Positions 21,924 to 58,977 of a stretch of DNA of 64,000 nucleotides are shown piece by piece (the first letter of the stretch is position 1; each line of letters starts with the position of its first letter). Origin of the DNA: an uncultured Gammaproteobacteria bacterium (GTDB taxonomy: Bacteria > Patescibacteriota > Microgenomatia > JAMCZE01); contig CAZSSJ010000001.1 in assembly GCA_964609775.1 (NCBI GenBank), positions 22,858-86,857 of the forward strand. The letters run 5' to 3'. Below the pieces are notes generated by a model. The model searched no databases. It worked only from the letters and a program-made list of their open reading frames with translations, and was not told where the DNA came from. The position numbers and the translations under genes were made by a program.

Positions 21924-21971
21924 GCTGGCTTGCCCTGAGCTTGTCGAAGGGTGGATTGTGAATTAACGAAA

Positions 21972-29393: not shown

Positions 29394-29507
29394 GGTCCTG
29401 CTCCAGAGGTGAAGGTGTGGAACTATGCCTTGACCCCATATCAAGTGAGGACTGAATATAACCAATCGGGTGCAGTGAGATTTGGCCCAACAACTGGTGC
29501 TCCCTAG
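29394..29507 (+). pseudogene. Orphan 3' remnant of a LamG-type gene (GPAPEVKVWNYALTPYQVRTEYNQSGAVRFGPTTGAP-stop)
   Basis: Aligns with GQADDIKIWAYSLTAYQVRMEFNQSSAVRFGPSSGAP at the end of the 2,038-aa gene. TAG stop and no upstream gene body. Confidence 0.7.
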
Positions 29508-29521
29508 ATTGTTGGGATGCC

Positions 29522-29555
29522 TTTCCTGAGGGGTGGTCTCGGGAAGAAATTTTTC
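29522..29555 (+). terminator. Hairpin plus T-run downstream of the LamG remnant
   Basis: TTCCTGAG-gggtggt-CTCGGGAA stem-loop followed by gaaattttt. A homologous hairpin is at 49114-49140. Confidence 0.5.
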
Positions 29556-29618: not shown

Positions 29619-32600
29619 TTGAAAAAACATCTAAGCTTAATCATCTTCTTTGTCTTCATCTTTTCAGGCTTTTTCGTGTTTGCGCCGGCGCCGCTTTGGG
29701 CTTCCGGGGCGACCTATTATGTGGCGACTTCCGGCAGTGACACTAATTCCGGCACGCAAAGTGCGCCCTGGGCCACGCTCCAAAAAGCCCTCGGGAGCAT
29801 TTCCTCCGGCGACATGGTCATCATCCGCGGAGGCATCTATCGTCAGCCCGGCAGCATGATTGGCTACCCCTACAAATCCTTCGGCCCAGCCGGAACGGCG
29901 GGCAATTTGACCACCTTCAAATCTTATCCCGGAGAACGAGTTATCATCACCGGTCCAAACAACGACCTTATCCAAATTGCCGTTGCCGACTATGTTCGGA
30001 TTGACAGCCTCTGGTTTGGCGGGGATTATGTCACCGGTATCAAAGGTCCGGTGTTTCAAATTTCCGGCGTCGGCAAAGAAATTGTCAACAACACCTTTTT
30101 CAATTGGCCCTCGGGCCCGCTGATGGGTTGGGGAGAAAACGTCCTTTTTCAAGGAAATCGGCTCGTCAACACCGGCCGGGATGTGCACACCGCGGGAACC
30201 TATTTCTCTTCGGGATATGCGACTGACGGAAAGTTGTCTAATCACATCATTGCTGACCACAACATCTACATTGGCAACAACATTTCCGCCGGTTATGGCT
30301 TCCAGTTTTGGCATGGCGGCAAGTCCATGATCGCGACCCGAAACTTTGTGGCCGGTCATTCCTGGGGGAGCGCCATAGACGGAGACAGCCAGCTGTGGGC
30401 TAATAATTTTTATTGGAAGCAAACCGGAAAAGATTCAGACATTGACACCGTCATTAATCCCTATGGTCCTCTGTCCGGTGGTTCTAATCAAAAGTATATC
30501 AATAATATCTTTGGGCCCTCCGCCTGGTTTTATTATGCTAACGCCTGGAAAGCCACTCAGGCAGAAATCGATACCAAACTATCTAATAATGCTTTCACTG
30601 ACGATCCCTCCTATCTGCCGGGATCCGGTGGTCCCACCTGTAAAAAGCCCTGCGGAGTAAGTCCATACGTCTTTCATCAAGGGCAAGAAAGTGCGGAAAT
30701 TGGTATCAGTGCGGCAGCTCTGGATAAGGCAGTTGGGACAATCAGTCAGGCTTTTCTAAACCCGCTGGACACTATCTATAGCGACACCACGGTTGAATCA
30801 AGTTTTCAACAGATTCGCTCGGCGCAAGTTCCAACCACGAGCCCCCTATACCGTAAAGGACTGCCTTGGTTCGGACAAGCCATCGACATTGGCTGGAACG
30901 TTCCGGCGCCAGCCTCCGTTTGCGACTATTGGGCCGCTTTCACCAAGCTTGGTCTCAAGCACTATGATAAATACGGTAGTGTTCTTCCTGACTATTCCTG
31001 CACTAGTCCTACACCACCTCCGCCGCCACCGCCACCACCGCCGCCGTCGACAGTGACGGGCGACGTTAATGGTGACGGCAAGGTTGATTTTGCCGACCTC
31101 CAAGCCCTGCTCTTAAACATCCTGGGGACAGTCACGGCGCAACTTGATCTCATTGTCGATGGCAAAATTAATTCGTTGGACTTTGCCGTTTCCTCGGGAG
31201 AAATCATTAATGCTAATCCGCCGCCGCCCGGCGACACTCAAGCTCCAGTCACTGTCATCACCGCGCCAGCTGGTGGTCAAACGGTCAGTGGGACTTTTTC
31301 CGTCGTGGCGAGCGCGACGGATAACGTCGGGGTGACAAAAGTGGAGTTCTATATTGACGGGGCGATTAAAAACACTGACACGGGTGTTCCCTACGGATTT
31401 AATCTGGACACGACCCAACTGACTAATGCCGCGCACACGGTTTATTCCAAGGCCTATGACGCTGCCGGCAACGTAGGGAGCTCATCAAGCATCACTTTCA
31501 CGGTCAGCAACACCGCCCCGCCGCCCCAAACCATGACTTTGAATTTGTCCTCGTATTTTGGCGGCTCGGGTGAAGACAGTGCTCGCGACGTGGTCACCGA
31601 TTCCCAAGGCAATGCCTACGTGGTGGGCGGCCTGGGATCAGCAACGATCCAGACAACCCAAACTTTTAAAAAAACCGGTACCTGCGCTGTTTCCTGGACG
31701 GGTAACGGCGGCAAGGACATGGACGCCTATGTCATGAAAATCAGCCCGACTAACCAGCTTGTCTGGTCAACCAGGATCGGCGGGCCGTGCTATGACCGGT
31801 CGTATGGCGTGGAGCTCGATTCCTCGGGAAACATCTACTTGACCGGCCGGGCCGGGCCGAATTTCCCCACGACCAGCGGGACTTTCCAGCCGGGTTTCTA
31901 CGGCTTTAATTCCGGCAGCGCCTATGGTGAGCAGAACGCTTTTGTGGCCAAAGTTTCCCCAACGGGAGCTCTTGTTTGGGCGAGCTACGTCGGCTCGACA
32001 GACGGCAACCGGGACATCGCCGTTGACGGCAGTGGGGATGTCTATATTGGCACCGGCTTTAATTCGGCGACGCAAAAGCCACTAAGCGGGCTTGCCTGGT
32101 TTAGCTCGGCCATTAGCAAGGCTTTTCAAGTGGTGAACAATCGCGGTTTTGAGGGCTTGATTGTCAAAATTAAGTCTGACGGGTCGCAGGTGGTGTGGGC
32201 CAGTTTCTACGGCGGCACGGGTAATGAGGGAGCCACGCCGTCAATCAGAGTGGATAGGAACGGCTACGTTTATTACCTCACCAACACAACTTCGACTAAT
32301 CTGCCCGTAAAAAACGCTTTCAAATCGACTCTCGGGGGGACGATCGACATGGCCCTCGTTAAATTCCATTTTGACTCGGGGGTGGGGAAACTGGTCACCG
32401 ACTATTCGACCTATTTTGGCGGCAGTGATGTCGAGTTTACCGAAACCCACGGTCTGGCCGTGGACGTATCGGGAAACGCCTATATAGCCGCGACCACCAA
32501 ATCTACGAACCTGACGACGACCACGGGGGCTTACCAACGAACCTATGGCGGCTCAGGGGGAAGCGGAAACTATCCGGGGGACGGCTTTGTGGCGAAATTT

Positions 32601-32993
32601 TCCCCCACGGGGACACTTCTTTCGGCCACCTATCTGGGGGGGTCCTCAGGGGAGGGCCTGGAGGGCACGGCCCTTGATTCTTCGGGTAATGTCTTTGTCT
32701 CGGGGGCGACCTATTCAACAAACTTCCCGACGAGTTCCGGAGCCTTTCAAACAAGTAATAAGGGCAGAGCTGACGTTTTTGCGGCGAAACTTTCGCCGGA
32801 TCTCAAAAGTCTTCTTTTCAGCACCTACCTGGGCGGCACGGGCGATGACCTGGGTCGGTCAGCAACGGTCGATTCTGCGGGCAACTTCCTGGTGGTGGGA
32901 CTCGAATATTCTTCCAATTTGCCGACGAAAAGTGCTTTCCAGATAACCTATGGGGGAGCCGGGGATGAGTTAATTTCTAAATTTGGTCCTTAA
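29619..32993 (+). CDS. Secreted multidomain protein: right-handed beta-helix, poly-Pro linker, dockerin-like module, Ig-like domain, SBBP beta-propeller repeats
   Basis: TTG start after GGAG, then a signal peptide. YYVATSGSDTNSGTQSAPWATLQKA is a beta-helix N-cap. DVNGDGKVDFAD and DLIVDGKINSLD are dockerin-like. Repeats of the DSSGN.Y..G....NFPT..GAFQ type. Confidence 0.75.
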   Translation: MKKHLSLIIFFVFIFSGFFVFAPAPLWASGATYYVATSGSDTNSGTQSAPWATLQKALGSISSGDMVIIRGGIYRQPGSMIGYPYKSFGPAGTAGNLTTFKSYPGERVIITGPNNDLIQIAVADYVRIDSLWFGGDYVTGIKGPVFQISGVGKEIVNNTFFNWPSGPLMGWGENVLFQGNRLVNTGRDVHTAGTYFSSGYATDGKLSNHIIADHNIYIGNNISAGYGFQFWHGGKSMIATRNFVAGHSWGSAIDGDSQLWANNFYWKQTGKDSDIDTVINPYGPLSGGSNQKYINNIFGPSAWFYYANAWKATQAEIDTKLSNNAFTDDPSYLPGSGGPTCKKPCGVSPYVFHQGQESAEIGISAAALDKAVGTISQAFLNPLDTIYSDTTVESSFQQIRSAQVPTTSPLYRKGLPWFGQAIDIGWNVPAPASVCDYWAAFTKLGLKHYDKYGSVLPDYSCTSPTPPPPPPPPPPPSTVTGDVNGDGKVDFADLQALLLNILGTVTAQLDLIVDGKINSLDFAVSSGEIINANPPPPGDTQAPVTVITAPAGGQTVSGTFSVVASATDNVGVTKVEFYIDGAIKNTDTGVPYGFNLDTTQLTNAAHTVYSKAYDAAGNVGSSSSITFTVSNTAPPPQTMTLNLSSYFGGSGEDSARDVVTDSQGNAYVVGGLGSATIQTTQTFKKTGTCAVSWTGNGGKDMDAYVMKISPTNQLVWSTRIGGPCYDRSYGVELDSSGNIYLTGRAGPNFPTTSGTFQPGFYGFNSGSAYGEQNAFVAKVSPTGALVWASYVGSTDGNRDIAVDGSGDVYIGTGFNSATQKPLSGLAWFSSAISKAFQVVNNRGFEGLIVKIKSDGSQVVWASFYGGTGNEGATPSIRVDRNGYVYYLTNTTSTNLPVKNAFKSTLGGTIDMALVKFHFDSGVGKLVTDYSTYFGGSDVEFTETHGLAVDVSGNAYIAATTKSTNLTTTTGAYQRTYGGSGGSGNYPGDGFVAKFSPTGTLLSATYLGGSSGEGLEGTALDSSGNVFVSGATYSTNFPTSSGAFQTSNKGRADVFAAKLSPDLKSLLFSTYLGGTGDDLGRSATVDSAGNFLVVGLEYSSNLPTKSAFQITYGGAGDELISKFGP

Positions 32994-32997
32994 ATCT

Positions 32998-34257
32998 ATG
33001 ATAAATTTAACTATGCCACAAATGCCAGAGCGCTTTTCCAGGTCCGGAGTTATTCCGATTAAACTTGTTATTCTCCTTTTATTGCTGGCGCTGCCGCTGC
33101 TGCTTCTGGCGTTGAACTCGAAGACGAATCTTTTAGGCCTGGCTGGAGCTTCGGCCAACCTGGCAGTCTATCCGGCCACCCAAGCTAATGTGGTCGTCGG
33201 GGACCCCGTCTCTTTCACTGTTTCGCTGACGACCGGTGGGGCCAGCGTCCGGGGAGCGGACGTGATCATTAACTACGACAAGACAAAGTTGGCTCTGGTG
33301 GACATTACGCCCAATGACGCTTCCTTTAAAACCTTTGGCCCGCAAACCGCCGGGGGAGTCTTCGATGCTTCTCGGGTTATCAGTGTGGCCAGTCAAAGCG
33401 GCCGGATTGAGTTTAGCTCTTTGGCCTTTGATCCGTCGCAATCAGGTAACGGTCAGCAAGGCTTGACGGCGCTTTTTAACGGCACGACGACGCTAGTCAA
33501 TCTCAAGTTCCTGGCGCTCTCCGCCGGCAGCAATATTCCCCTGACTTTTGGCTACACCGCCAGCAGCACGACCGATTCGAATGTGGCTCTGGACGGCGGC
33601 CAGGACGTCTTGGGCTCGGTCACAAACGCCGCGATTACGATTGTCAATCCCACGGTCCAAGATAGCCAGGCTCCAACAACAGCGGTGACGACGCCAACGG
33701 CCGACCAAACAGTGGCCGGGACGGTGATCCTTGCCGCCACAGCCACAGACAACGTGGGGGTGACAAAAGTGGAGTTTGTCCTGGACGGAGCGGTCAGGGG
33801 TTCGGACACCACTTCTCCCTACACTCTTTCCTGGGACTCAAAGACGGTTTCGGACGGCAGCCACTCCGTCCTGACCAAAGCCTATGACGCGGCCGGCAAT
33901 GTGGGCACTTCGCCAGCTATTAGCTTTAAAGTGGTTAACACGGTTGTGAGCAAGACGATGAGAGTGAGCCAGATTGTTTATGAAGTCCGCGGCCAAAAGC
34001 TTGATGATGGGGTTCTGGTTGTCGATGCGGCCGGCAAGGGGCTGGGCGGAGCCCTGGTTTCCCGAACGGTGACTAACGAGGCCCAGACTCTGACCTATAA
34101 ACTCTCTTCCAAAACGGCGACTAACGGTTGGACCGGCTCAACCATCACCAAAAAAGCCGCCCCGGGGTGCTATTCGGAGAAAATCACCGCCGTCACTCTC
34201 TCCGGCTACACCTTTGATGGTGTTACTCCGCAAAACCAATATTGCACCAAGAGGTAG
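32998..34257 (+). CDS. Secreted cohesin-like plus Ig-like domain protein
   Basis: The ORF opens at 32983; ATGs occur at 32998 and 33013. TM/signal IKLVILLLLLALPLLLLAL. VVVGDPVSFTVSL..GASVRGADVIINYDKTKLALVDI resembles a cohesin. The Ig-like DNVGVTKVEFVLDG is shared with neighbouring genes. Confidence 0.6.
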   Translation: MINLTMPQMPERFSRSGVIPIKLVILLLLLALPLLLLALNSKTNLLGLAGASANLAVYPATQANVVVGDPVSFTVSLTTGGASVRGADVIINYDKTKLALVDITPNDASFKTFGPQTAGGVFDASRVISVASQSGRIEFSSLAFDPSQSGNGQQGLTALFNGTTTLVNLKFLALSAGSNIPLTFGYTASSTTDSNVALDGGQDVLGSVTNAAITIVNPTVQDSQAPTTAVTTPTADQTVAGTVILAATATDNVGVTKVEFVLDGAVRGSDTTSPYTLSWDSKTVSDGSHSVLTKAYDAAGNVGTSPAISFKVVNTVVSKTMRVSQIVYEVRGQKLDDGVLVVDAAGKGLGGALVSRTVTNEAQTLTYKLSSKTATNGWTGSTITKKAAPGCYSEKITAVTLSGYTFDGVTPQNQYCTKR

Positions 34258-34273
34258 AAAGTTAGCCTATGAT

Positions 34274-36073
34274 ATGAGGCAAGAGAGAGCCTTTAGAAAG
34301 AGATTGTTTTGGAGGCGGGGTTTGACTTCAGTTCTGGCGCCGGTGGCTCTTTTTTTGGTTTTGATTCTGGGAGTGGTGGCGATTAATTTCGGGCTGAATT
34401 CATCAACGAGTCCGGAGCCACGAGCCGACGGAGGGACAAATGTCGTTGTGACCGGAACAGTGCAGCGGTCGCCATGGCTGCGGCTGCGGAAACCGGACTA
34501 TCGGCTGGTCAAGACGGATAATGGCAAGGACTACTATTTGACCACGACCAGCACGGGAATTAATCTCCGGACCTATGAGGGGAAAAAAGTCGTTGTGACA
34601 GGGACGGAGACAACGACGGCTAAGTGGGGGCTGACGCTGTTTGTCAAGGACATTAAGGTGTTTGTGGCCCCGCCGCCACCATATCCGGCGCAGAAGAAGG
34701 TGGACACCTCAAAGACGGTGATGTATCAAGTGTGGTTGAATTATTACGCCCAGAATGTCTCCGAGGATCAGCCGTCGATGGTGGTGTTTGAGAATGCGGC
34801 CCGGAGGTTGCCGGACCTGGCGAAGATGGGCGTGACCACAATTCAGCTTTCGCCGGTGCACCCGTTTTTGTCAGGGACGACCATTGGGTCGCCATATGGT
34901 TCACGGGACTACTATGACGTCAATCCGGGTTATGCCGGGTTCACAAATCCACAAACCGATCCGGGAACGAAAAGTGAGCGGATCGCCGCCTTTAAAAAAT
35001 ATGTTGAGGCGGCCCACGGTCAGGGGATGAAGGTGATCATGGACTGTGTCTATCACAGCACCGATGCCCGCAATGTTCTGGTGGCGGCGTATCCGGAATA
35101 TTACAAACATAATGCCGACGGCCGTTTTGTCCAGAATCAATACGGGTTTTATGTTTTGGACTACGCTCAATCCGAGCTTGTCGACTATATGATTTCGATG
35201 GTGAAATACTGGAAACAGACGGTGGGAGTGGACGGGTGTCGGGCGGACGTGGCGACGATGGTGCCGCTTGCTTTCTGGGCAGCCTTAAATAACGAGATGA
35301 AAAAGATTGATCCCGGGTGGCTCATGATTGCGGAAACGACAGCAAATCTGGTTTCGTATAGCGGGCCGTACAGCGGTCCGGGATATAAGGGGGAAACGTA
35401 TGACAAGATCTATGGTTTTGACGGGATATATGGGGTGACTTATATGCTGGCTTCACGGGCGATTCTTAACGGAAGTCGCATGGCTGATGTCCTGGAGACG
35501 GCCTGGGAGTTTCCGCAAAACGGCACGGCAGCGGTTCCGGGAGGAATTTTTTACCGGTCGGTGGACAATCATGATCAGCGGCCAAGAGCAACGCTTCTGG
35601 CTGGAGGGAATGCCGGGATGGTGGCTTCGGTGGCGGTCAACTTGACGCTTGACGGGATTCCGTTTATTTTTAATGGCCAGGAGATCGGGGATGTGGCGCC
35701 GACGAGCATTGCGGTTCAAAGATTTATTTCCTGGAGTCATCCGCTTGCACCCCAGAATGGAGAGGCTTTTGAGAAACTGATTTCACTTCGACGAAATCGT
35801 CCGGCTTTAAACAGCGGGACGACAGTTTGGCTTGATAATTCAAATCCGGCAGGAGTTGTGTCGTATGTCAGGCAGAGCGGGAGTGACCGGGTGTTGGTGG
35901 TGGCGAATCTTTCGGGGACAGACTGGAGCGGAACGGTGAGCGGAACAACGGGAGCAAGCCTTAGTGGCCAGGGAAAAGATCTCATCTCCGGTCTGAGCGT
36001 GTCTTCGGCGGTTAACAACGTGATGACGCTTTCACTCCCGGCCTATTCTTATGTTGTTATCCAAATTCAGTAG
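34274..36073 (+). CDS. Alpha-amylase family (GH13) glycosidase with N-terminal TM anchor
   Basis: GVDGCRADVATMVP (region II), IAETT, DNHDQ. The ORF opens at 34214, but the ATG at 34274 precedes the TM helix. Confidence 0.8.
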   Translation: MRQERAFRKRLFWRRGLTSVLAPVALFLVLILGVVAINFGLNSSTSPEPRADGGTNVVVTGTVQRSPWLRLRKPDYRLVKTDNGKDYYLTTTSTGINLRTYEGKKVVVTGTETTTAKWGLTLFVKDIKVFVAPPPPYPAQKKVDTSKTVMYQVWLNYYAQNVSEDQPSMVVFENAARRLPDLAKMGVTTIQLSPVHPFLSGTTIGSPYGSRDYYDVNPGYAGFTNPQTDPGTKSERIAAFKKYVEAAHGQGMKVIMDCVYHSTDARNVLVAAYPEYYKHNADGRFVQNQYGFYVLDYAQSELVDYMISMVKYWKQTVGVDGCRADVATMVPLAFWAALNNEMKKIDPGWLMIAETTANLVSYSGPYSGPGYKGETYDKIYGFDGIYGVTYMLASRAILNGSRMADVLETAWEFPQNGTAAVPGGIFYRSVDNHDQRPRATLLAGGNAGMVASVAVNLTLDGIPFIFNGQEIGDVAPTSIAVQRFISWSHPLAPQNGEAFEKLISLRRNRPALNSGTTVWLDNSNPAGVVSYVRQSGSDRVLVVANLSGTDWSGTVSGTTGASLSGQGKDLISGLSVSSAVNNVMTLSLPAYSYVVIQIQ

Positions 36074-37736: not shown

Positions 37737-38414
37737 TTATTTTAGGATTTGGGGTCTTAAGCTTCGGGCGAGGGATTCATAGAATTTCTCCATGGCTTTT
37801 TGGTCAAAGGGGACGAGCATTTTGGGAAGATTCGTTATTTCCGCGGCCTTGAGGAAGCTTTGGGCCGTTTTAATAGTGTCTGTGGTGACGACGAATTTTT
37901 GGTCAGCACTGGTGAGGAGATCGGCTGCTGTCCAGTTTGTTTCTTTGATAATTAAGTAGAGGTCGACGTAATCTCGTTCACGGGCTTTGGTGCGGATCGT
38001 GTGGATCTTGTTGACGGCAATGTCGTAGAGGCTATCAATTTCGAGGCCGCGCCACCTGATTCCCGGTTTTAGACGGTTGAAGGAGTAGTGGTTAAAGTCG
38101 ACCTTGAAACGGCTGTTGTCAGGGTAGCGGAAGAAATATGTGTAGAAACCAAGGTCGTCATCGACGCTAACGTGACGGTATTCGAGGATACTTTGATTCC
38201 TTTTGATCCATTCAGTAACACGGTCGCCATTAAAGGAGCGATCGGTGAAGAAATCCAAATCGTAGGATTCCCGGTGGTGGAGGTACCAGCTGGCCAGACC
38301 GGTGCCGCCGCTTAAGTAGAAGTTATCGAGGAGATATTTTTCCTGAAGTACCAGGTCCAGAAATTGCTTCTGTCGAAGGCTAAGTCCTTCTCCTTGCGCC
38401 AGGGTTTGTTCCAT
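37737..38414 (-). CDS. Nucleotidyltransferase AbiEii/AbiGii-toxin-like protein (copy 1)
   Basis: FYLSGGTGLASWYLHHRESYDLDFF NTase motif. Paralog of 39317-39991. Confidence 0.6.
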   Translation of the reverse strand: MEQTLAQGEGLSLRQKQFLDLVLQEKYLLDNFYLSGGTGLASWYLHHRESYDLDFFTDRSFNGDRVTEWIKRNQSILEYRHVSVDDDLGFYTYFFRYPDNSRFKVDFNHYSFNRLKPGIRWRGLEIDSLYDIAVNKIHTIRTKARERDYVDLYLIIKETNWTAADLLTSADQKFVVTTDTIKTAQSFLKAAEITNLPKMLVPFDQKAMEKFYESLARSLRPQILK

Positions 38415-46274: not shown

Positions 46275-46763
46275 TTATTTTTGAGCGAGGCGCATTTTGT
46301 AACTAAATGAATGAGTGATGGCGACGGCCAGAGCGTCGGCGGCGTCGTCGGGCCTCGGAACGGTCTTTAAATTCAGAACTGATTTTACCATCATTTGGAT
46401 CTGATATTTATCGGCCCGGCCGTAGCCTGTCAGAGCCTGTTTAATTTGAAGAGGGGTGTAGGAATGGAGAGACAGACTTTTGAGTTGGGCGCAGAGGAGA
46501 ACAATGCCGCGAGACTGGCCGACAGCCAGAGCGGTTTTGGCGTTGGCGGCAAAAAATAGCTCCTCGACAGCCAGGGTGTGGGGGTGATGGGTGGTGATGA
46601 GTTTTTCCAGAAAGCGAAAAATGATTTCCAGACGCTCCTCTTCGGGGAGGTGGGCGGCGGTTTCCTGACAGCCGAAATCGATGAGATCAAGCCTGCCTTG
46701 ATCATCTTTAATGAGCCCCCAACCGAGGCGGGCAAAACCGGGATCAATGCCCAAAATTTTCAT
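46275..46763 (-). CDS. ruvC: Crossover junction endodeoxyribonuclease RuvC
   Basis: MKILGIDPGFARLGWGLI..., RuvC length and motifs. Confidence 0.9.
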   Translation of the reverse strand: MKILGIDPGFARLGWGLIKDDQGRLDLIDFGCQETAAHLPEEERLEIIFRFLEKLITTHHPHTLAVEELFFAANAKTALAVGQSRGIVLLCAQLKSLSLHSYTPLQIKQALTGYGRADKYQIQMMVKSVLNLKTVPRPDDAADALAVAITHSFSYKMRLAQK

Positions 46764-53301: not shown

Positions 53302-54333
53302 TCAATCTAAGATTTCTTCATCCGGTTCGTTAGCCTGTTTTTGGAGTAGAGGGAAATCGACAGTGGTGACGGCGTTTTTCGTGATGGGAAAGAGACCGGG
53401 ACTCACAGCAATGAAACCCTTGGGGGCCGAGGGGGACCACTTCTTCAAAAGTAGCTGCTTCCCACTTTTGCAGTAGAAATAGTTATTGCCAGTGGGGATT
53501 TTGACCGGGCGGTTGATGCCGGCACAGGTCTCAAATTTAAAGCCTGCCGGGATGAGCGGTTTTTTAATTTTATAGTCGCCGGTAGGAATTTCCCCAAAAG
53601 AGTAGTTTTCTTTGCCGGTGTTTTTTCCGGAATCAAGGATGGCGACTAGTGTGTTTGCGCCAGAGTCGACTTTAGTCAGAGTTAAACTGGCTTTTTTGAC
53701 CGAGGGTTCGACGGACTCGGCGTTTTTTCTGGCGTTGTGGTCGGTTTCGTCGTCATGCCAGATGTAGCCTGTCAGGGGGCCTTTGTCCGAGGCGGTTTGG
53801 ATTTTTTCGACCTGGATTTCGCAGGTGGAGTTGTTTTGAGCGGAGGGGTACCAGAGACTCGCGTTAGTGCCGCAGGTAGTTTTAGAGACCTTCCAATTCG
53901 AGGGAAGGTTAGTGCTGCCGGTTTCAGGGCAACTCGTACAAAGAGTGATTTGGTAGCCGGCGCCAGTTGTTGAGTCAGACCAGGTGGCACAGCCGGCGCC
54001 GTTGCAGGCGGAAGGACTGTAGGTTTGGACACGGCCTTTTTGGCAGACCGGGTCGGAGCAGGAGGCGTTGCAGCCGGTTGGACAAGCGGACATGAAGGTG
54101 GCGCGGACACTCACTTGGCTGGGGTATTTCTGGCCAGTGGCCCGGTCTTTTATTTTAATCGTCAGCGGGTTTCCGAAGGGTGGTGGCGGGGGGGGCGGGG
54201 GGGGGGGGGGGGGGCGGGCTTTGCTCGTAGCCGGAACAAAGCAAGGGAGCCGTGTTGCTGCAGTAGGAGTTGTAGTCCGAATAGGCAGGCTTGATGAGTC
54301 CGGAAGTGAGGCAAGTTTTGACGTCCGGAACAC
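53302..54333 (-). CDS. Cys-rich / SdrD-B (CnaB-like) domain region; probably the C-terminal part of the upstream M64-like gene
   Basis: Its first 40 residues are low-complexity and read the alternate frame of 54155-55594. Real-looking sequence starts after the shared poly-Pro (FGNPLTIKIKDRATG...). GYIWHDDETDHN...YSFGEIPTGDYKIK. Confidence 0.5.
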   Translation of the reverse strand: MFRTSKLASLPDSSSLPIRTTTPTAATRLPCFVPATSKARPPPPPPPPPPPPFGNPLTIKIKDRATGQKYPSQVSVRATFMSACPTGCNASCSDPVCQKGRVQTYSPSACNGAGCATWSDSTTGAGYQITLCTSCPETGSTNLPSNWKVSKTTCGTNASLWYPSAQNNSTCEIQVEKIQTASDKGPLTGYIWHDDETDHNARKNAESVEPSVKKASLTLTKVDSGANTLVAILDSGKNTGKENYSFGEIPTGDYKIKKPLIPAGFKFETCAGINRPVKIPTGNNYFYCKSGKQLLLKKWSPSAPKGFIAVSPGLFPITKNAVTTVDFPLLQKQANEPDEEILD

Positions 54334-55594
54334 ACCAGTTGGTGGTCCAGACGTAAGAGGAATCTCCGATCATGGGAGTCCCCGAGGGAATTGGGGCGAA
54401 GAGATTGATGGCGCCACGCATGGCGGGCTCGTCAACGGGGTCAAGGTGATAACCGGATTCTGACCAGAGTGTCTCCATAATGCAGCTGCCAGAGGTGGAT
54501 TTGTAACGGTTGGTGTAGGTGCAGATGGTGTAGCAGTTTGTTCCGGGGATTCCTGACCATTTGCCACAAGCAGAAGAGGTATCACAGTTTGCGTGAATGT
54601 TTCGGTTGGGGTTGGTTTCAATTTTGTTGTAATCATATTCATCATTTAAGTTTCCGATGCCATGACCTAATTCATGATAGAGGGTAAGTCCGGGAAAAGG
54701 CAGATTTGATTGTGATCGTGACATGAGGGCATACTTGATTGGCGGATAATAGGACCAGCCAATCTTGTCGTCGATGCCTTCAAGAATAACAATGAAGTCG
54801 TAGTTGGTTTGGGAAGCGATGTTGTAGATTAAAGCACTGTCGCAATCAAGATTTTCAGCGTTATTAAAACTGTTACACAAGATTTGATCGTTGTGGATTT
54901 TCGCGAATCTGATTTTTGATCGATATTCGTTCCAAGGTGACTGAGCCAGGAGGAAGTTAGTCATACTGCTAACGTCCGCATCAAATAGGTCAAAGTCGGA
55001 ATAGCGGTCGCTTATAAAGGTAAGGTCAAGGTAACCGTCAGAGGAAAGACCCGACTGGGGAGCCGGAGTGTTAGATGACTTGACAACATAACTTTTTTTA
55101 AGGATTGCCGATTGAATCTTTAGGCTGTCTAAGACTTGGGTCTTTTTTGGCTGGCTATGGCGAATTTGGATTGTAGCGCCCGTTTGGTAAGGGAAAGAGA
55201 TTACCACTCGGGGCTCGGAAAAAATCTTATCCTGTCTATTGATTTGTTTTTTTTCAGAAGCGAAAGTTTCGATGGCGAGACTGTCAGTAAATTTAATGCT
55301 TGCTTTCCAGGTGGTTTTTCCGTTTAAAACTTGTTCGATTTCATCAGTTTCACTGTCAGTTTTTTGGTTTGGCAAGTAGGGGGTATAGCCATTGTTGGCG
55401 AGGGCTTTTTGAATGGAGATTTTGCCGGTGGTGGGGTTTTTGGTTAAGACGAGGATGAGGTTGGTGTCTGCTTTGAGGCCAGTAGCTTTGTCTTGGAGAC
55501 GGGTTTGTTGGGTGACAATAAATAGAGTTGCACCTAGGAGGGGGAGGAGGAGAAGGACGAGAGTGAGGCTGAGGGTGGCGGCACCTTTTTTCAT
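54155..55594 (-). CDS. Secreted M64 (IgA-peptidase-like) zinc metalloprotease, truncated by a frame change in the poly-C tract
   Basis: Signal peptide. HELGHGIGNLNDEYDY matches the M64-type HExxHxxxxLxDEY. Ends 15 codons after the poly-Pro. Confidence 0.65.
   Translation of the reverse strand: MKKGAATLSLTLVLLLLPLLGATLFIVTQQTRLQDKATGLKADTNLILVLTKNPTTGKISIQKALANNGYTPYLPNQKTDSETDEIEQVLNGKTTWKASIKFTDSLAIETFASEKKQINRQDKIFSEPRVVISFPYQTGATIQIRHSQPKKTQVLDSLKIQSAILKKSYVVKSSNTPAPQSGLSSDGYLDLTFISDRYSDFDLFDADVSSMTNFLLAQSPWNEYRSKIRFAKIHNDQILCNSFNNAENLDCDSALIYNIASQTNYDFIVILEGIDDKIGWSYYPPIKYALMSRSQSNLPFPGLTLYHELGHGIGNLNDEYDYNKIETNPNRNIHANCDTSSACGKWSGIPGTNCYTICTYTNRYKSTSGSCIMETLWSESGYHLDPVDEPAMRGAINLFAPIPSGTPMIGDSSYVWTTNWCVPDVKTCLTSGLIKPAYSDYNSYCSNTAPLLCSGYEQSPPPPPPPAPPATTLRKPADD
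54188..54218. repeat. G8-C-G18-C-G3 homopolymer tract (poly-Pro codons on the minus strand)
   Basis: Read directly: G run 54188-54195 and G run 54197-54214. Confidence 0.95.
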
Positions 55595-55651
55595 GGGTAT
55601 AGTTATAGTATTTAGATTATTACTCCCACAAGGCCTGTCAAGGGTTCAGGA

Positions 55652-55794
55652 TTGACAGTAAGATGGCCGACTAGTAAGATTAGACCGTATGAATGGTCGT
55701 GTTTTGCTTTTGGCTCTCCTTCAAAGCTCGCAATAGCGGGGAAGGTTTGTTGGCAAAACACATCTTAATCCCGCAAAAGGCGGGATTTTTTGTT
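55652..55794 (+). promoter_or_regulatory. Promoter plus structured ~110-nt transcript ending in an intrinsic terminator (cis-leader of the 4HB-leuS operon, or a small RNA)
   Basis: TTGACA(55652)-N17-TAAGAT(55675). 9-bp stem GTGTTTTGC(55699)/GCAAAACAC(55753). Inner CTCGC-aata-GCGGG hairpin. No plus-strand gene lies upstream. Confidence 0.45.
55767..55794 (+). terminator. Rho-independent terminator
   Basis: AATCCCGC-aaaag-GCGGGATT followed by TTTTGTT, 12 nt before the ATG at 55806. Confidence 0.7.
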
Positions 55795-55805
55795 AGGATT
55801 AGCCT

Positions 55806-56408
55806 ATGGATCAGGAAAATTGGGGGAATCAGGGAGATCAGTTTAAGAAAGCGGGCTACCAGTATCTGTTGGCTTGGAAAATAACTGTTCCCATTTATGA
55901 TTACACTGTCATTTTTTGCAGGAAGTATCGCAGATTGCTCTCTTCTGAGCGGACTTATGACCAGATGGTGCAGGCGGCCAGAAGCGGGACACAAAATGTT
56001 CCGGAGGGAAATCAACAGGCAAGTCTTGAAGGCTACATCAAATTGACTGGTGTTAACAAAGCCTCATTGGAGGAACTATTGAGGGATTTCCTGGCGTTTG
56101 CCAGACAGAATCAGATTCCAATTTGGTCAAAGGAAAGGTGTGTCAGGGAAATTAGGGAAATTGGGGAGATCTGGGGGATTCTTAAAAATAATAAAACGCT
56201 CCCTGACGATCCCAATTTCCCGAATTTCCCTGACAAATTGGAGATCGGCGTCAATTTAATGATAACATTGGTCCATCAAGCAATTTTTCTTCAAGGGAAA
56301 TTAAAGGAGTCTTTGGAGAAAAAGTTCATCGAGGAAGGTGGTTTTAGAGAGAACTTGTTTAGAAAGAGAATGGACTGGCGAAGGAGGCAGAATGGACAGG
56401 AAGTATGA
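55806..56408 (+). CDS. Four-helix-bundle protein (23S rRNA IVS / Avd-like family) with C-terminal suffix domain
   Basis: YQYLLAWKITVPIYDYTVIFCRKY...TYDQMVQAARSGTQNVPEG...ASLEELLRDF matches the family pattern from memory. Confidence 0.55.
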   Translation: MDQENWGNQGDQFKKAGYQYLLAWKITVPIYDYTVIFCRKYRRLLSSERTYDQMVQAARSGTQNVPEGNQQASLEGYIKLTGVNKASLEELLRDFLAFARQNQIPIWSKERCVREIREIGEIWGILKNNKTLPDDPNFPNFPDKLEIGVNLMITLVHQAIFLQGKLKESLEKKFIEEGGFRENLFRKRMDWRRRQNGQEV

Positions 56409-58977
56409 ACCGGCAGAGATAGAGAAGAAGTGGCCCTCCTTCGCCAAGGCTTCGGACGGGCAAGCAGGACGTTATAACCATCGGGAGATTGAGCATAAGT
56501 GGCAGGAGGTGTGGGAAAAAGAGAAACTATATCTAACTCCAAAACCTGATGCCGAGCATCCGAAGAGATACATTTTGGATATGTTTCCCTACCCGTCGGG
56601 GGCGGGACTTCATGTTGGGCATATGGAAGGCTACGTGGCCACGGATGTTATTGTCAGATACCTGCGGATGAAGGGGCTTTCGGTTCTTCACCCGATGGGC
56701 TGGGACGCGTTTGGCCTGCCGGCCGAGAATTATGCGATTAAAGAAGGAATTGCCCCTGATAAGTCGACGCACGAGAATATCAAGAATTTTAAGTATCAGC
56801 TTCAACTTTTGGGACTGTCTTATGATTGGTCCAAAGAAATAGATACATCTAGCCCGAAGTATTACAAATGGACACAGTGGTTGTTTACGCTGCTGTTTAA
56901 AAAGGGCTTAGCCTATAAAAAGAAAGCGCCGGCGAATTGGTGCCCCAAGGACGAAACGGTGCTGGCCAACGAGCAGGTGGTTGATGGGAAATGCGAACGG
57001 TGCGGGACGGCGGTAGTGCAAAAGGAATTGGAGCAGTGGTTTTTTAAGATTACGGATTATGCGGATAAGCTGATTTCCGGTCTGGACAAAGTCGATTGGC
57101 CGGAATCGACCAAGACGCAGCAGGTTAACTGGATTGGGAAGAAAGAGGGCATCGAAATTACTTATGAGGTGGTAGGTGTTCCTGACGAAATTACTGTTTT
57201 TACGACTGCTCCGGTTAACTTTGGGATGACCTTTTTGGTTTTAGGACCAGAACACCATTTCGTCCAGAAAATTATTTCTGGTGAAATTAAGATTTCTTCT
57301 GAGACTCAAAAAGAAGTTAAGGATTATGTTGAGGCGGCGGGTAAAAAGACAGAACTGGAGAGGATCGCTGCGGGTAGGGAGAAGACAGGGGTGTTTACCA
57401 CTTTATATGCAATTAACTCCATTAATGGTAAAAAAGTGCCGATTTATGTGACTGATTTTGTTTTAGGGCATGTGGGTACTGGTGCGGTTCAAGGTTGCCC
57501 GGCGCATGATCTTAAAGACTTTCAGTTTGCAAAGAAGTTTAACTTGCCGATCGTTAGAGTTGTTGAGGGTCCCGATGGTGATGCTGGACCGGTAGAGAGA
57601 GAAGATCAGATTATTGAAAAGGGAATGCGGGGTACATTTATTAATTCAGAGTTTTTGAACGGCTTGAGTTTTGAGGGAGGACTGCAAAAGACGATGGACT
57701 ATTTTGTTGAAAAAGGCGTTGGTAGGAGGGTGGTGACCTATCACATTCGGGATTGGCTGATTTCGAGGCAGAGATATTGGGGGTGCCCGATCCCGATGGT
57801 GTTTTGCGAAAAAGACAGCTGGCAGCCTGTTCCTGATTCAGAACTACCTATTTTGTTACCAACTGATATAGATTTTCGACCGACCGGGGAATCACCGATT
57901 GCCAGATCAGGGTCTTTCCAAAAAGGGGTAAGGTGCCCGGTTTGCGGGGAGGCAGCCAAGCGGGAGGTAGACACCATGGACACTTACGTCGACTCCTCAT
58001 GGTATTTTTACCGCTTTGTAGATCCGGATAATAACAAAAAATTCGCTTCGAAGAAGGCTCTCGAAACATGGATGCCGGTGGACATTTATGTTGGCGGCGG
58101 GCATGTGGTCCAGCACCTGCTGTTTGCCCGATTCTTCCACAAAGTTCTCGTCGATGCAGGATATATTAAGGGTGATGGCGCTGGTGAGCCTTTCCTAAAG
58201 CTTAGAGCGCCGGGATGGATTTTGGGCCCGGACTCTCGCAAGATGAGCAAGCGCTGGGCGAACGTTATCACTCCGGAGGAAGTGGTTGCCAAACATGGAG
58301 CGGACACGATGCGGATGTATGAGATGTTTATGGCGCCGTTTGAAGTCGATAAACCGTGGAATGTCAACTCGGTGGCTGGGGTGCAGCGCTTTTTGAGCCG
58401 AATTTACGGTTTGTTTGAAAGATCTTATCAGTTGAAGGACGCAGTTGCTGGCGAAGCAATGGCTCGTGAGATTAATAAATTGGTTTTTAAGGTCGGCAAA
58501 GATATTGAGGGTTTCAAGTTCAATACGGCAGTGGCTGCCATGATGGAGTTTGTGAATCAGGTACAGGCAGGATTGAAGACGAAGGAGCAGGGTGAAGGAA
58601 GCTACACCTGGAGAGTGGTTTGGGAGAAGTTTCTGACCGTTTTGGCGCCGTTTGCGCCGCATTTGGCGGAGGAGCTGTGGTCCCACTTCGCCAAGGCTTC
58701 GCGGGACAAGCATGGATATGTTTCTGTCCATCAGCAGTCGTGGCCGGAGGTTGATGAGAAATATCTGGGCCAGGAAAGCAGGACGATCGTGGTGTCGATT
58801 AATGGCAAGGCGAGAGCGACATTGAAAATGAGCAATGGGCAATCCTCAATGAGCAATAGCCAGGAGGAGGTTGAGAAGTTGGCGAGAGGAGATCAGAATG
58901 TGGCGAAGTGGCTGGAAGGGAAAGAGGTTAAGAAAGTGGTCTACGTACCAGGCAAGATTGTCAACTTCGTCGTTTAA
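56392..58977 (+). CDS. leuS: Leucine--tRNA ligase
   Basis: FPYPSGAGLHVGHMEGY (HIGH region), KMSKRW (KMSKS). ATG at 56392 after GAAGGAGG; the track ORF opens at 56338. Confidence 0.95.
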   Translation: MDRKYEPAEIEKKWPSFAKASDGQAGRYNHREIEHKWQEVWEKEKLYLTPKPDAEHPKRYILDMFPYPSGAGLHVGHMEGYVATDVIVRYLRMKGLSVLHPMGWDAFGLPAENYAIKEGIAPDKSTHENIKNFKYQLQLLGLSYDWSKEIDTSSPKYYKWTQWLFTLLFKKGLAYKKKAPANWCPKDETVLANEQVVDGKCERCGTAVVQKELEQWFFKITDYADKLISGLDKVDWPESTKTQQVNWIGKKEGIEITYEVVGVPDEITVFTTAPVNFGMTFLVLGPEHHFVQKIISGEIKISSETQKEVKDYVEAAGKKTELERIAAGREKTGVFTTLYAINSINGKKVPIYVTDFVLGHVGTGAVQGCPAHDLKDFQFAKKFNLPIVRVVEGPDGDAGPVEREDQIIEKGMRGTFINSEFLNGLSFEGGLQKTMDYFVEKGVGRRVVTYHIRDWLISRQRYWGCPIPMVFCEKDSWQPVPDSELPILLPTDIDFRPTGESPIARSGSFQKGVRCPVCGEAAKREVDTMDTYVDSSWYFYRFVDPDNNKKFASKKALETWMPVDIYVGGGHVVQHLLFARFFHKVLVDAGYIKGDGAGEPFLKLRAPGWILGPDSRKMSKRWANVITPEEVVAKHGADTMRMYEMFMAPFEVDKPWNVNSVAGVQRFLSRIYGLFERSYQLKDAVAGEAMAREINKLVFKVGKDIEGFKFNTAVAAMMEFVNQVQAGLKTKEQGEGSYTWRVVWEKFLTVLAPFAPHLAEELWSHFAKASRDKHGYVSVHQQSWPEVDEKYLGQESRTIVVSINGKARATLKMSNGQSSMSNSQEEVEKLARGDQNVAKWLEGKEVKKVVYVPGKIVNFVV

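What the first reader, a model, noticed from the sequence alone, without database searches (positions are those of the whole stretch)
55652..55794. Promoter, structured RNA of about 110 nt, and strong intrinsic terminator immediately upstream of the four-helix-bundle/leuS operon
No plus-strand gene precedes this region, yet it ends with a textbook terminator (8-bp GC-rich stem plus TTTTGTT) only 12 nt before the ATG at 55806. A TTGACA-N17-TAAGAT promoter lies about 110 nt upstream. The transcript can form a 9-bp closing stem (55699-55707 with 55753-55761) around inner hairpins. GCGGG(GAAG) at 55736-55744 can alternatively pair with (CTTaat)CCCGC, the 5' half of the terminator, which is the logic of an antiterminator. 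This fits a riboswitch or attenuator controlling leuS, or an independent small RNA. I recognise no known riboswitch consensus.
Basis: partly seen in the sequence, partly recalled or inferred. Interest (0 to 1): 0.5.

Follow-up and report, generated by a model that had tools for sequence, protein, structure and literature searches.

The report
Leucine leader-peptide attenuator before leuS
Just upstream of the leucyl-tRNA synthetase operon of an uncultivated groundwater bacterium (Candidatus Gottesmanbacteria) lies what looks like a classic "leader peptide" transcription attenuator: a 15-codon mini-gene with five leucine codons, wrapped in mutually exclusive RNA hairpins ending in a terminator. 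This is a known kind of switch, not previously noted in this bacterial group, and the closest sampled relative uses a T-box riboswitch at the same place.

Summary
The promoter TTGACA-N17-TAAGAT, a long hairpin (55695-55764), an intrinsic terminator (55767-55787 plus T-run) and an alternative antiterminator (55736-55774) are all present and exceed chance (z about -4.3 to -4.4).

Its ATG lies 8 nt after the -10 box, the geometry of leaderless genes in this clade. Five of seven consecutive codons are Leu and lie in the 5' arm of the big hairpin. The stop codon abuts the antiterminator's 5' strand.

Folding with ribosome footprints reproduces classical attenuation. No ribosome, or a ribosome at the stop codon, gives the terminator. 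A ribosome stalled on the Leu codons gives the antiterminator.

The nearest LeuS relative (73% identity) has a Leu T-box with terminator upstream of ridA-leuS. Streptomyces leuS has a published leaderless Leu leader-peptide attenuator.

Weaknesses:
- The leader is invariant in one population and absent elsewhere, so there is no covariation.
- The transcription start is unknown.
- TGTTAGGAT-N6-ATG may be a separate promoter for the 4HB-leuS genes.

Verdict: probably a new member of a known kind. Confidence is about 0.45 for the leader-peptide mechanism and about 0.65 for some regulated terminator.

The parts
55635..55658 (.). Inverted repeat CTGTCAA-N10-TTGACAG. It supplies a TTGACA -35 hexamer on each strand: plus strand 55652-55657, minus strand 55641-55636. 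This is a back-to-back divergent promoter region.
   Evidence: Read directly from the sequence. The plus-strand hexamer is called. The minus-strand promoter is my inference only.
55652..55680 (+). Promoter P1: TTGACA (55652-57), 17 nt, TAAGAT (55675-80). AGTAAGAT is directly repeated at 55657-64 and 55673-80.
   Evidence: 10 of 12 matches; direct repeat. One search shows the same promoter style elsewhere in the window, for example a 12/12 match before gene 41647.
55689..55736 (+). Candidate leaderless leader-peptide ORF: ATG AAT GGT CGT GTT TTG CTT TTG GCT CTC CTT CAA AGC TCG CAA TAG = MNGRVLLLALLQSSQ*. The Leu codons are at 55704-55712 and 55716-55721.
   Evidence: Sequence. At least 5 Leu in 7 codons occurs in 5 of 698 ATG mini-ORFs of the window and in 0.025% of leader shuffles. 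The ATG is 8 nt after the -10 box, as for leaderless leuS genes of relatives, which show 6-8 nt.
55695..55764 (+). Segment 1:2 hairpin (anti-antiterminator and possible pause hairpin). The 5' arm contains the Leu codons. The inner hairpin CTCGC-AATA-GCGGG carries the stop codon at its top.
   Evidence: -26.7 kcal/mol in isolation; perfect 9-bp core.
55736..55774 (+). Segment 2:3 antiterminator hairpin: GCGGGG/UCCCGC, AAGGU/AUCUU and UGUU/AACA. It consumes the 5' half of the terminator.
   Evidence: -16.8 kcal/mol, z -4.33, 0/200 shuffles; it forms in the nascent RNA whenever 55689-55716 up to 55689-55731 is masked.
55767..55794 (+). Segment 3:4 intrinsic terminator: AATCCCGC-AAAAG-GCGGGATT followed by the run TTTTGTT.
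55791..55805 (+). TGTTAGGAT TAGCCT. This is either a Shine-Dalgarno AGGA (55796-99) 6 nt before the 4HB ATG, or an extended -10 promoter (P2) for a leaderless 4HB-leuS mRNA.
   Evidence: The pattern is comparable with TGCTAGAAT-N7-ATG of window gene 37737-38414. Neither reading was tested.
55806..56408 (+). Four-helix-bundle protein with suffix domain (200 aa), first gene of the operon.
   Evidence: TIGR04258 scores 45.7 bits against a cutoff of 40; TIGR02436 scores 22.5 against 24. PF05635 is weak.
56392..58977 (+). leuS (861 aa). It overlaps the 4HB stop by 17 nt.
   Evidence: gene call 3587-6172 in L081.

Best explanation
The region is a classical, ribosome-mediated (leader-peptide) transcription attenuator. 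It makes expression of the 4HB-leuS operon respond to the supply of charged tRNA-Leu.

Proposed mechanism:
1. RNA polymerase starts at promoter P1, at about 55687-55689. This produces an mRNA whose 5'-terminal AUG (55689) is translated without a leader.
2. The 15-codon ORF carries five Leu codons (55704-55721) inside the 5' arm of a large hairpin (segments 1:2).
3. If Leu-tRNA is plentiful, the ribosome runs to the UAG at 55734-36. There it covers the GCGGGGAAGG strand (segment 2), or it falls off so that 1:2 re-forms. In either case the antiterminator cannot form, the 3:4 terminator forms, and transcription stops about 12 nt before the 4HB start codon.
4. If Leu-tRNA is scarce, the ribosome stalls on the Leu codons. 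This holds segment 1 open, so segment 2 (55736-) pairs with segment 3 (-55774). The antiterminator pre-empts the terminator and polymerase reads into 4HB-leuS.

Shown here: the sequence elements, their mutual exclusivity and their statistical unusualness.

Inferred, not shown: the transcription start, translation of the mini-ORF, and Leu-dependent read-through.
For: - Anatomy: the promoter, the 1:2 hairpin and the terminator are verified. The first 8 nt, including the AUG, are unpaired in the minimum-free-energy fold.
- Cognate codons: MNGRVLLLALLQSSQ* has 5 Leu in 7 codons, directly upstream of an operon containing leuS. The base rate for at least 5 Leu in 7 codons is 0.7% of ATG mini-ORFs in the window and 0.025% of dinucleotide shuffles of the leader. 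A Leu-rich mini-ORF followed within 90 nt by a terminator occurs only twice, weakly and not upstream of leuS, in 1.16 Mb of other leuS loci.
- Switching logic: unmasked RNA folds as 1:2 plus terminator (-40.1 kcal/mol). Masking a ribosome footprint on any of the Leu codons makes the nascent RNA (up to 55779) fold into the antiterminator (-16.6). Masking a footprint at the stop codon (55719-55749) restores the terminator. The antiterminator alone scores z = -4.33, with 0 of 200 shuffles folding as well.
- Leaderless geometry: relatives' leuS genes have a TAnnnT box 6-8 nt before the ATG (L174, L175, L179, L180, L129). Several genes of the window have the same arrangement. Here it is TAAGAT-N8-ATG.
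- Same regulatory need next door: the closest LeuS relative (73% identity, L171/L172) has, upstream of ridA-leuS, a T-box (RF00230, 49 bits, E 8e-10) with a terminator and a CUA/CUC-containing specifier loop. T-boxes above the Rfam threshold precede leuS in L111, L138 and L164.
- Precedent: Streptomyces leuS has a predicted classical attenuator (PMC1262725). It has a leaderless 12-aa Leu leader peptide followed by a hairpin and U-stretch (PMC8079986).
- Rfam's best sub-threshold matches are whole-model alignments to Phe_leader and Trp_leader. This reflects shared architecture only.
Against: - No comparative support. The intergenic region is 100% identical in the 10 retrieved contigs (of the 23 read that carry the 4HB protein). 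All cluster members are at least 99.5% identical. Neither blastn nor a covariance model finds the leader in about 180 other loci.
- The transcription start is unknown and the mini-ORF has no Shine-Dalgarno sequence. The model depends on leaderless initiation.
- The U/C-rich 5' arm of a hairpin yields Leu, Phe or Ser codons easily, and 1 of its 3 frames is Leu-rich.
- The Leu codons used (TTG, CTT, CTC) are common codons.
- On the full transcript the terminator fold stays thermodynamically favoured even with a stalled ribosome. Antitermination would therefore have to be kinetic, as it is in known attenuators.
- TGTTAGGAT-N6-ATG in front of the 4HB gene looks like an extended -10 leaderless promoter. 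In that case leuS would not depend on read-through.
- The first regulated gene is a mobile 4HB gene, not leuS. The 4HB homologues in the other retrieved loci are never next to leuS.
Confidence: 0.45

Rival explanations
1. The region is a regulated terminator/antiterminator leader that senses something other than a translating ribosome. Candidates are a small ligand (a new riboswitch), uncharged tRNA-Leu by a non-T-box mode, or a protein (LeuS itself or the co-encoded 4HB protein) that stabilises or opens the 1:2 hairpin. On this view the Leu-rich mini-ORF is a coincidence.
For: The three mutually exclusive helices exist regardless of the ORF. The sister lineage uses an RNA sensor (T-box) at the same place. 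The 5' arm is U-rich, so a Leu-rich frame can arise by chance.
Against: No Rfam family matches and no T-box core is present. The element is a plain long hairpin with small internal loops. It has no multi-helix junction or conserved pocket, and it is not conserved anywhere. The only UGGN-like tetranucleotide (UGGC, 55749-55752) is mostly paired and would match a G73 discriminator, not the A73 of tRNA-Leu (my reading of the sequence plus general knowledge). The ORF's start, Leu cluster and stop sit exactly where the ribosome model needs them.
Confidence: 0.15
2. P1 plus the terminator form an independent, roughly 105-nt transcription unit, either a small RNA or a 15-aa micro-protein gene. The 4HB-leuS operon is transcribed from its own extended -10 promoter P2 (TGTTAGGAT, 55791-55799) as a leaderless mRNA. 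The terminator merely insulates the two units.
For: TG-N-TAnnnT followed by 6-7 nt and an ATG is the arrangement of other leaderless genes here and in relatives. The terminator is strong and sits only 12 nt from the ATG. The sub-threshold Rfam hits include Hfq-type sRNAs with the same hairpin-plus-terminator shape.
Against: P2 has no -35 element, and its -10 hexamer doubles as a well-spaced AGGA Shine-Dalgarno sequence. The very stable antiterminator, which competes specifically with the terminator, has no role in a constitutively terminated sRNA. There is no second copy and no homologue of the RNA anywhere. The Leu-codon cluster next to leuS would be unexplained.
Confidence: 0.2
3. The region has no dedicated function. 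The hairpins and terminator are debris or by-products of the lineage-specific rearrangement that replaced the T-box and ridA by the mobile 4HB gene, sitting in a divergent promoter region.
For: The element is absent from all retrieved relatives. The upstream side of leuS is highly variable in Microgenomates. The 4HB gene occurs in unrelated contexts elsewhere.
Against: The joint occurrence is very improbable by chance. It comprises a near-consensus promoter, an ATG at the leaderless position, 5 Leu in 7 codons, two z of about -4.3 structures and the cleanest terminator in 64 kb. The sequence is also invariant across all 10 retrieved assemblies.
Confidence: 0.15

Closest known systems
Streptomyces leuS attenuator (leader peptide LeuL2, MRAVRLLLSEPR*)
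   Same: It is a leaderless short ORF with a run of Leu codons, followed by a hairpin and U-stretch, directly upstream of leuS (PMC1262725; PMC8079986). Sensor, output and regulated gene are the same.
   Different: There is no sequence relationship and the phylum differs (Actinobacteria versus Patescibacteria/Microgenomates). Here a 4HB gene lies between the leader and leuS. The leader peptide has 5 Leu in 15 residues rather than 3 in 12.
E. coli pheM-pheST attenuator and the amino-acid operon leaders (Rfam Leu_leader, Phe_leader RF01859, Trp_leader RF00513)
   Same: The architecture is the same: four segments (1:2, 2:3, 3:4) with regulatory codons in segment 1 and a stop codon just before segment 2. 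pheST is the textbook case of a tRNA synthetase operon controlled this way (general knowledge; mentioned in PMC1262725).
   Different: The Rfam matches are far below threshold: Phe_leader 20.6 bits against 55, Trp_leader 19.2 against 41. The element is therefore not a sequence member of these families. The E. coli leaders use Shine-Dalgarno-led ORFs rather than leaderless ones (general knowledge).
T-box leader (RF00230) upstream of leuS
   Same: It has the same position, the same output (terminator versus antiterminator) and the same physiological signal (tRNA-Leu charging). It is present in the nearest relative L171 and in L111, L138 and L164.
   Different: The window's leader has no T-box core (GGUGGNACC), no Stem I or specifier loop and no Rfam T-box hit even at E <= 10. 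It is roughly half the length. The proposed sensor is a ribosome, not direct tRNA binding.

Membership tests
Classical leader-peptide transcription attenuator | Short promoter-proximal ORF enriched in codons of the cognate amino acid | tested here: met
   55689-55736 encodes MNGRVLLLALLQSSQ*, with 5 Leu in 7 codons. The base rate is 0.7% of mini-ORFs and 0.025% of shuffles. The downstream operon contains leuS.
Classical leader-peptide transcription attenuator | Intrinsic terminator between the leader ORF and the structural genes | tested here: met
   An 8-bp stem with 5 G-C pairs plus TTTTTTGTT at 55767-55794.
Classical leader-peptide transcription attenuator | Antiterminator (2:3) mutually exclusive with the terminator, and anti-antiterminator (1:2) overlapping the regulatory codons | tested here: met
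   The antiterminator at 55736-55774 scores z -4.33. The 1:2 hairpin at 55695-55764 contains the Leu codons. Footprint-masked folding gives the expected outcomes.
Classical leader-peptide transcription attenuator | The leader ORF is translated, and read-through rises when the cognate charged tRNA is scarce | not testable with these tools
   This needs transcription-start and 3'-end mapping plus coupled transcription-translation assays. The only indirect support is that the -10-N8-ATG geometry equals that of leaderless genes in the clade.
Classical leader-peptide transcription attenuator | Conservation of the ORF and helices (covariation) in related genomes | tested here: inconclusive
   Only one near-clonal population carries it, and the leader is 100% identical in the 10 retrieved contigs. 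The nearest relative (73% LeuS identity) has a T-box instead. The covariance model and blastn find no other copy.
T-box riboswitch (RF00230) | Conserved T-box sequence (AGGGUGGNACCGCG) in an antiterminator bulge, and Stem I with a specifier codon | tested here: not met
   There is no RF00230 hit at E <= 10 in 55550-55850, none in the window at E <= 0.05, and no GGTGGNACC(R)CG motif in the window. The same tests are positive for L171.
Rfam amino-acid leader families (Phe_leader RF01859, Trp_leader RF00513) | Score at or above the family's gathering threshold | tested here: not met
   20.6 bits against 55, and 19.2 bits against 41.
Independent small RNA gene | Own promoter and terminator, conserved as a unit independently of the downstream gene | tested here: inconclusive
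   A promoter and a terminator are present. No homologue or second copy exists anywhere searched.

The most novel reading that the evidence does not exclude
The leader is not ribosome-sensed. Instead it is a previously undescribed, ribosome-independent attenuator that replaced a T-box. One possibility is a hairpin recognised by LeuS or by the co-transcribed four-helix-bundle protein. That would give this widespread, function-unknown 4HB family (relatives of 23S-rRNA intervening-sequence proteins) a first role as an RNA-binding antitermination or termination factor. Another possibility is a minimal new leucine or tRNA-Leu riboswitch.
Probability: 0.1. Interest if true: 0.75.

Novelty: new member of a known kind. 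Interest (0 to 1): 0.42.

Why it matters
Bacteria of the Candidate Phyla Radiation (CPR, Patescibacteria) are uncultivated, have tiny genomes and are thought to have little regulation. Almost nothing is known about their RNA-based control.

If the prediction holds, three things follow:
- Coupled transcription-translation attenuation on leaderless mRNAs operates in this group.
- An essential tRNA synthetase is tuned to charged tRNA-Leu in an organism that must import its amino acids.
- Two close lineages (73% LeuS identity) solve the same sensing problem with different devices, a T-box versus a leader peptide. This would be a compact example of non-orthologous replacement of a regulatory RNA.

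It also gives a concrete, short construct (about 120 nt) that can be tested in vitro without culturing the organism.

Tried and rejected
- Rfam: the whole window at gathering threshold and at E <= 0.05 gave nothing. The local scan at E <= 10 gave only sub-threshold matches that reflect architecture.
- tRNA/tmRNA scan: none in the window.
- The RNA travels with the 4HB gene: rejected. Eighty 4HB loci (59-75% identity for the 15 best) lie in unrelated contexts, none next to leuS and none with the leader.
- The RNA is conserved upstream of leuS: rejected for the available data. I checked 80 metagenomic leuS loci (42-50% identity, one at 63%) and 9 closer ones (55-73%). blastn and a covariance model R1 gave no hit. 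The L115 hit is just the terminator of the upstream gene.
- Strain-level covariation: impossible. The leader is identical in the 10 retrieved contigs and the protein clusters are at least 99.5% identical.
- Phage origin: an exact 24-mer is absent from viral contigs.
- Degenerate T-box: rejected.
- SRP, 6S or other housekeeping RNA: considered because of the long-hairpin shape, but no Rfam support.
- Leu-rich mini-ORFs upstream of other leuS genes: none convincing.
- The second ATG (55693, 63-codon frame) runs through the terminator and into the 4HB gene out of frame. I judged it spurious.

Full report
**Source and setting.** The window comes from an uncultivated groundwater CPR bacterium. The exact 4HB and LeuS proteins are those of Candidatus Gottesmanbacteria RIFCSPHIGHO2_01_FULL_47_48 and of Microgenomates bacterium GW2011_GWA1_48_10. 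The finding lies in the 211-nt gap between two genes. On the minus strand is a secreted M64-like peptidase gene starting at 55594. On the plus strand is an operon of a 200-aa four-helix-bundle (4HB) protein (55806-56408; TIGR04258 suffix domain above cutoff, TIGR02436 borderline) and leuS (56392-58977, overlapping the 4HB stop by 17 nt).

**Observation check.**
- Promoter: TTGACA-17-TAAGAT at 55652-55680 is the best promoter-like site in the surrounding 2.2 kb (10 of 12 matches). It has the same form as promoters before other genes of the window.
- Repeats: the 9-bp perfect inverted repeat 55699-55707/55753-55761 and the 8-bp terminator stem 55767-55774/55780-55787 are confirmed. The terminator is followed by TTTTTTGTT.
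- Fold: the predicted fold of 55686-55796 is one long hairpin plus the terminator, at -40.1 kcal/mol and z = -4.37.
- Rarity: with a simple terminator scan, clean hairpin-plus-T-run sites are rare in this 64-kb window and almost never follow genes. This one is the cleanest.

Eight nucleotides after the -10 box an ATG (55689) opens a 15-codon frame: ATG AAT GGT CGT GTT TTG CTT TTG GCT CTC CTT CAA AGC TCG CAA TAG, encoding MNGRVLLLALLQSSQ*.
- Five of seven consecutive codons are Leu, and the operon downstream contains leuS.
- At least 5 Leu in 7 codons occurs in 5 of 698 ATG mini-ORFs of the window (0.7%) and in 0.025% of dinucleotide shuffles of the leader.
- A Leu-rich mini-ORF followed within 90 nt by a terminator occurs only twice in 1.16 Mb (both strands) of other leuS loci. 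Both cases are weak and neither is upstream of leuS.

**Mechanistic anatomy.**
- The Leu codons (55704-55721) lie in the 5' arm (segment 1) of the big hairpin.
- The UAG (55734-36) sits at the top of the hairpin and abuts GCGGGGAAGG, which is the 5' strand of the antiterminator (segment 2).
- Segment 3 (UCCCGC, up to 55774) is shared by the antiterminator and the terminator.

I folded the RNA with positions masked to imitate ribosome footprints.

| State | Masked positions | Predicted fold |
|---|---|---|
| No ribosome | none | 1:2 hairpin plus terminator |
| Ribosome at the stop codon | 55719-55749 | terminator |
| Ribosome stalled on any Leu codon | 55689-55716 up to 55689-55731 | antiterminator in the nascent RNA (to 55779), -16.6 kcal/mol |

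On the complete transcript the terminator-containing fold remains somewhat more stable even with a stalled ribosome. Antitermination would therefore be kinetic, as in the trp paradigm (established knowledge). In isolation the helices score -26.7 (1:2), -15.1 (2:3) and -12.0 (3:4) kcal/mol. The first 8 nt, including the AUG, are unpaired.

**Is a leaderless leader peptide plausible here?** Yes.
- In related Microgenomates the leuS gene itself has a TAnnnT box 6-8 nt before its ATG (L174, L175, L179, L180, L129).
- In the window, TGCTAGAAT-N7-ATG (gene 37737-38414), TATAAT-N6-ATG (gene 46275-46763) and the GAGAAT-N4-7-ATG cassettes show the same geometry.
- TAAGAT-N8-ATG(55689) fits this pattern.

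**Comparative evidence.** Direct conservation cannot be tested.
- The intergenic region is 100% identical in the 10 retrieved contigs (of the 23 read that carry the exact 4HB protein). All cluster members are at least 99.5% identical.
- The next LeuS relative is only 73% identical.
- That relative (L171/L172) has, upstream of ridA-leuS, a T-box: AAGGUGGUACCACGG plus a long terminator and T7. It scores RF00230 49 bits, E 8e-10, below Rfam's threshold of 93. Its Stem I is very short and its 11-nt loop AGCUAAACUCG contains the Leu codons CUA and CUC.
- T-boxes above threshold precede leuS in L111, L138 and L164.
- Other relatives have no leader, with only 37-60 nt to a divergent gene.
- So the need for a regulated terminator responding to tRNA-Leu charging upstream of leuS exists in the sister lineage, but the device differs.
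- The 4HB gene is a mobile addition. Its homologues (59-75% identity for the 15 closest) occur in many CPR lineages in unrelated contexts, never next to leuS.

**Comparison with known systems.**
- Streptomyces leuS has a predicted classical attenuator (PMC1262725). In S. lividans this is a leaderless 12-aa peptide MRAVRLLLSEPR* followed by a hairpin and U-stretch (PMC8079986). This is the closest analogue.
- E. coli pheM-pheST is the textbook synthetase case (general knowledge; cited).
- Rfam's best local matches are full-length but far sub-threshold alignments to Phe_leader and Trp_leader. The element shares their architecture but is not a sequence member.
- T-box membership was tested and not met.
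- A literature search found no paper combining T-box or riboswitch terms with Candidate Phyla Radiation, and none among the 10 top-ranked papers of a T-box/Patescibacteria search. The library is incomplete.

**Caveats and rivals.**
1. The 4HB ATG is preceded by TG-T-TAGGAT plus 6 nt (55791-55805). This is either an AGGA Shine-Dalgarno sequence or an extended -10 promoter for a leaderless 4HB-leuS mRNA. If P2 is real, leuS does not depend on read-through. The P1 unit could then be an independent roughly 105-nt RNA or micro-ORF, or P1 plus the attenuator could act as a Leu-responsive booster on top of basal P2.
2. A U-rich hairpin arm easily encodes Leu in one frame.
3. The transcription start is not known.
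4. A ribosome-independent sensor (ligand, tRNA or protein) cannot be excluded.

**Confidence.**

| Reading | Weight |
|---|---|
| Leader-peptide attenuator | about 0.45 |
| Another kind of regulated terminator | about 0.15 |
| Independent small transcript | about 0.2 |
| No function | about 0.15 |

**Verdict.** This is a real, statistically unusual leader with the full anatomy of a classical Leu leader-peptide attenuator in front of a leuS operon. It is a new member of a known kind, in a phylum where this has not been described, and it sits opposite a T-box in the sister lineage. Interest is moderate (0.42). The prediction is specific and testable in vitro, but it rests on a single invariant sequence.

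Noticed in passing
window minus strand, (GA)n tracts at 59363-59354, 47125-47114, 44405-44384, 43380-43369, 41493-41482, 40321-40300, 39024-39013: There are seven copies of a conserved promoter-like cassette, CTTGACA-AATTAAGCA-(GA)n-GAGAAT-N4-7-ATG, in front of small non-homologous genes of 105-156 aa. The repeat number n ranges from 5 to 11, so the spacer between the -35 and -10 boxes would be 15, 17 or 27 nt. This looks like dinucleotide-repeat (phase-variable) leaderless promoters. The one copy covered by strain contigs (59363) did not vary.
   Followed up: partly
L171 2380-2592 (Logan SRR21358226 contig; same in L172): The nearest relative's ridA-leuS operon is preceded by a T-box with an unusually short Stem I, whose specifier sits in an 11-nt terminal loop (AGCUAAACUCG). 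It scores only 49 bits against Rfam's threshold of 93, so it is missed at the gathering threshold. CPR T-boxes may be systematically under-called.
   Followed up: partly
window 54170-54215: A long G-rich homopolymeric tract (GGCGGGGGGGGCGGGGGGGGGGGGGGGGGGCGGG) encodes poly-Pro in the minus-strand peptidase-like gene. Its length differs between strain contigs (gene 756, 760 or 762 aa). In the window it splits the gene into 479-aa and 343-aa ORFs. This is either an assembly error or slippage-driven variation.
   Followed up: partly
window 55806-55850 and L001-L015 around the 4HB start codons: The 5' ends of this 4HB-plus-suffix gene family carry short, variable, G/A-rich near-repeats (TCAGGGA, GGGAAG). 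These give low-complexity N-termini such as QENWGNQGDQ, SKGSWGSKG and ESQGNDQGKYRG. The genes are scattered across Microgenomates, Saccharibacteria and Parcubacteria in unrelated contexts, which suggests mobility.
   Followed up: no
window 55635-55658: A perfect 7-bp inverted repeat, CTGTCAA-N10-TTGACAG, places a TTGACA on each strand between the divergent genes. It could also be a regulator binding site. AGTAAGAT is directly repeated 16 nt apart at 55657 and 55673.
   Followed up: no
L174, L175, L179, L180, L129 (leuS start codons); window genes 37737-38414(-) and 46275-46763(-): A -10 box (TAnnnT, often with an upstream TG) lies only 6-8 nt before the ATG, and there is no Shine-Dalgarno sequence. 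Leaderless mRNAs appear to be the rule for leuS and common in general in these Microgenomates.
   Followed up: partly
window 5946-21923 and 21951-28067 (+): Two giant ORFs of 5325 and 2038 aa lie in tandem. They are followed by genes for dockerin/cohesin/Big_7/beta-propeller proteins and an amylase (29619-36073). This points to a cellulosome-like surface apparatus in a CPR genome.
   Followed up: no
window 29400-29546 (+): A stretch that translates like the C-terminal end of a LamG-type protein (..VWNYALTPYQVRTEYNQSGAVRFGP) has no full ORF. It is followed by a terminator-like hairpin and then a TTGACA promoter. It is probably a gene remnant.
   Followed up: no
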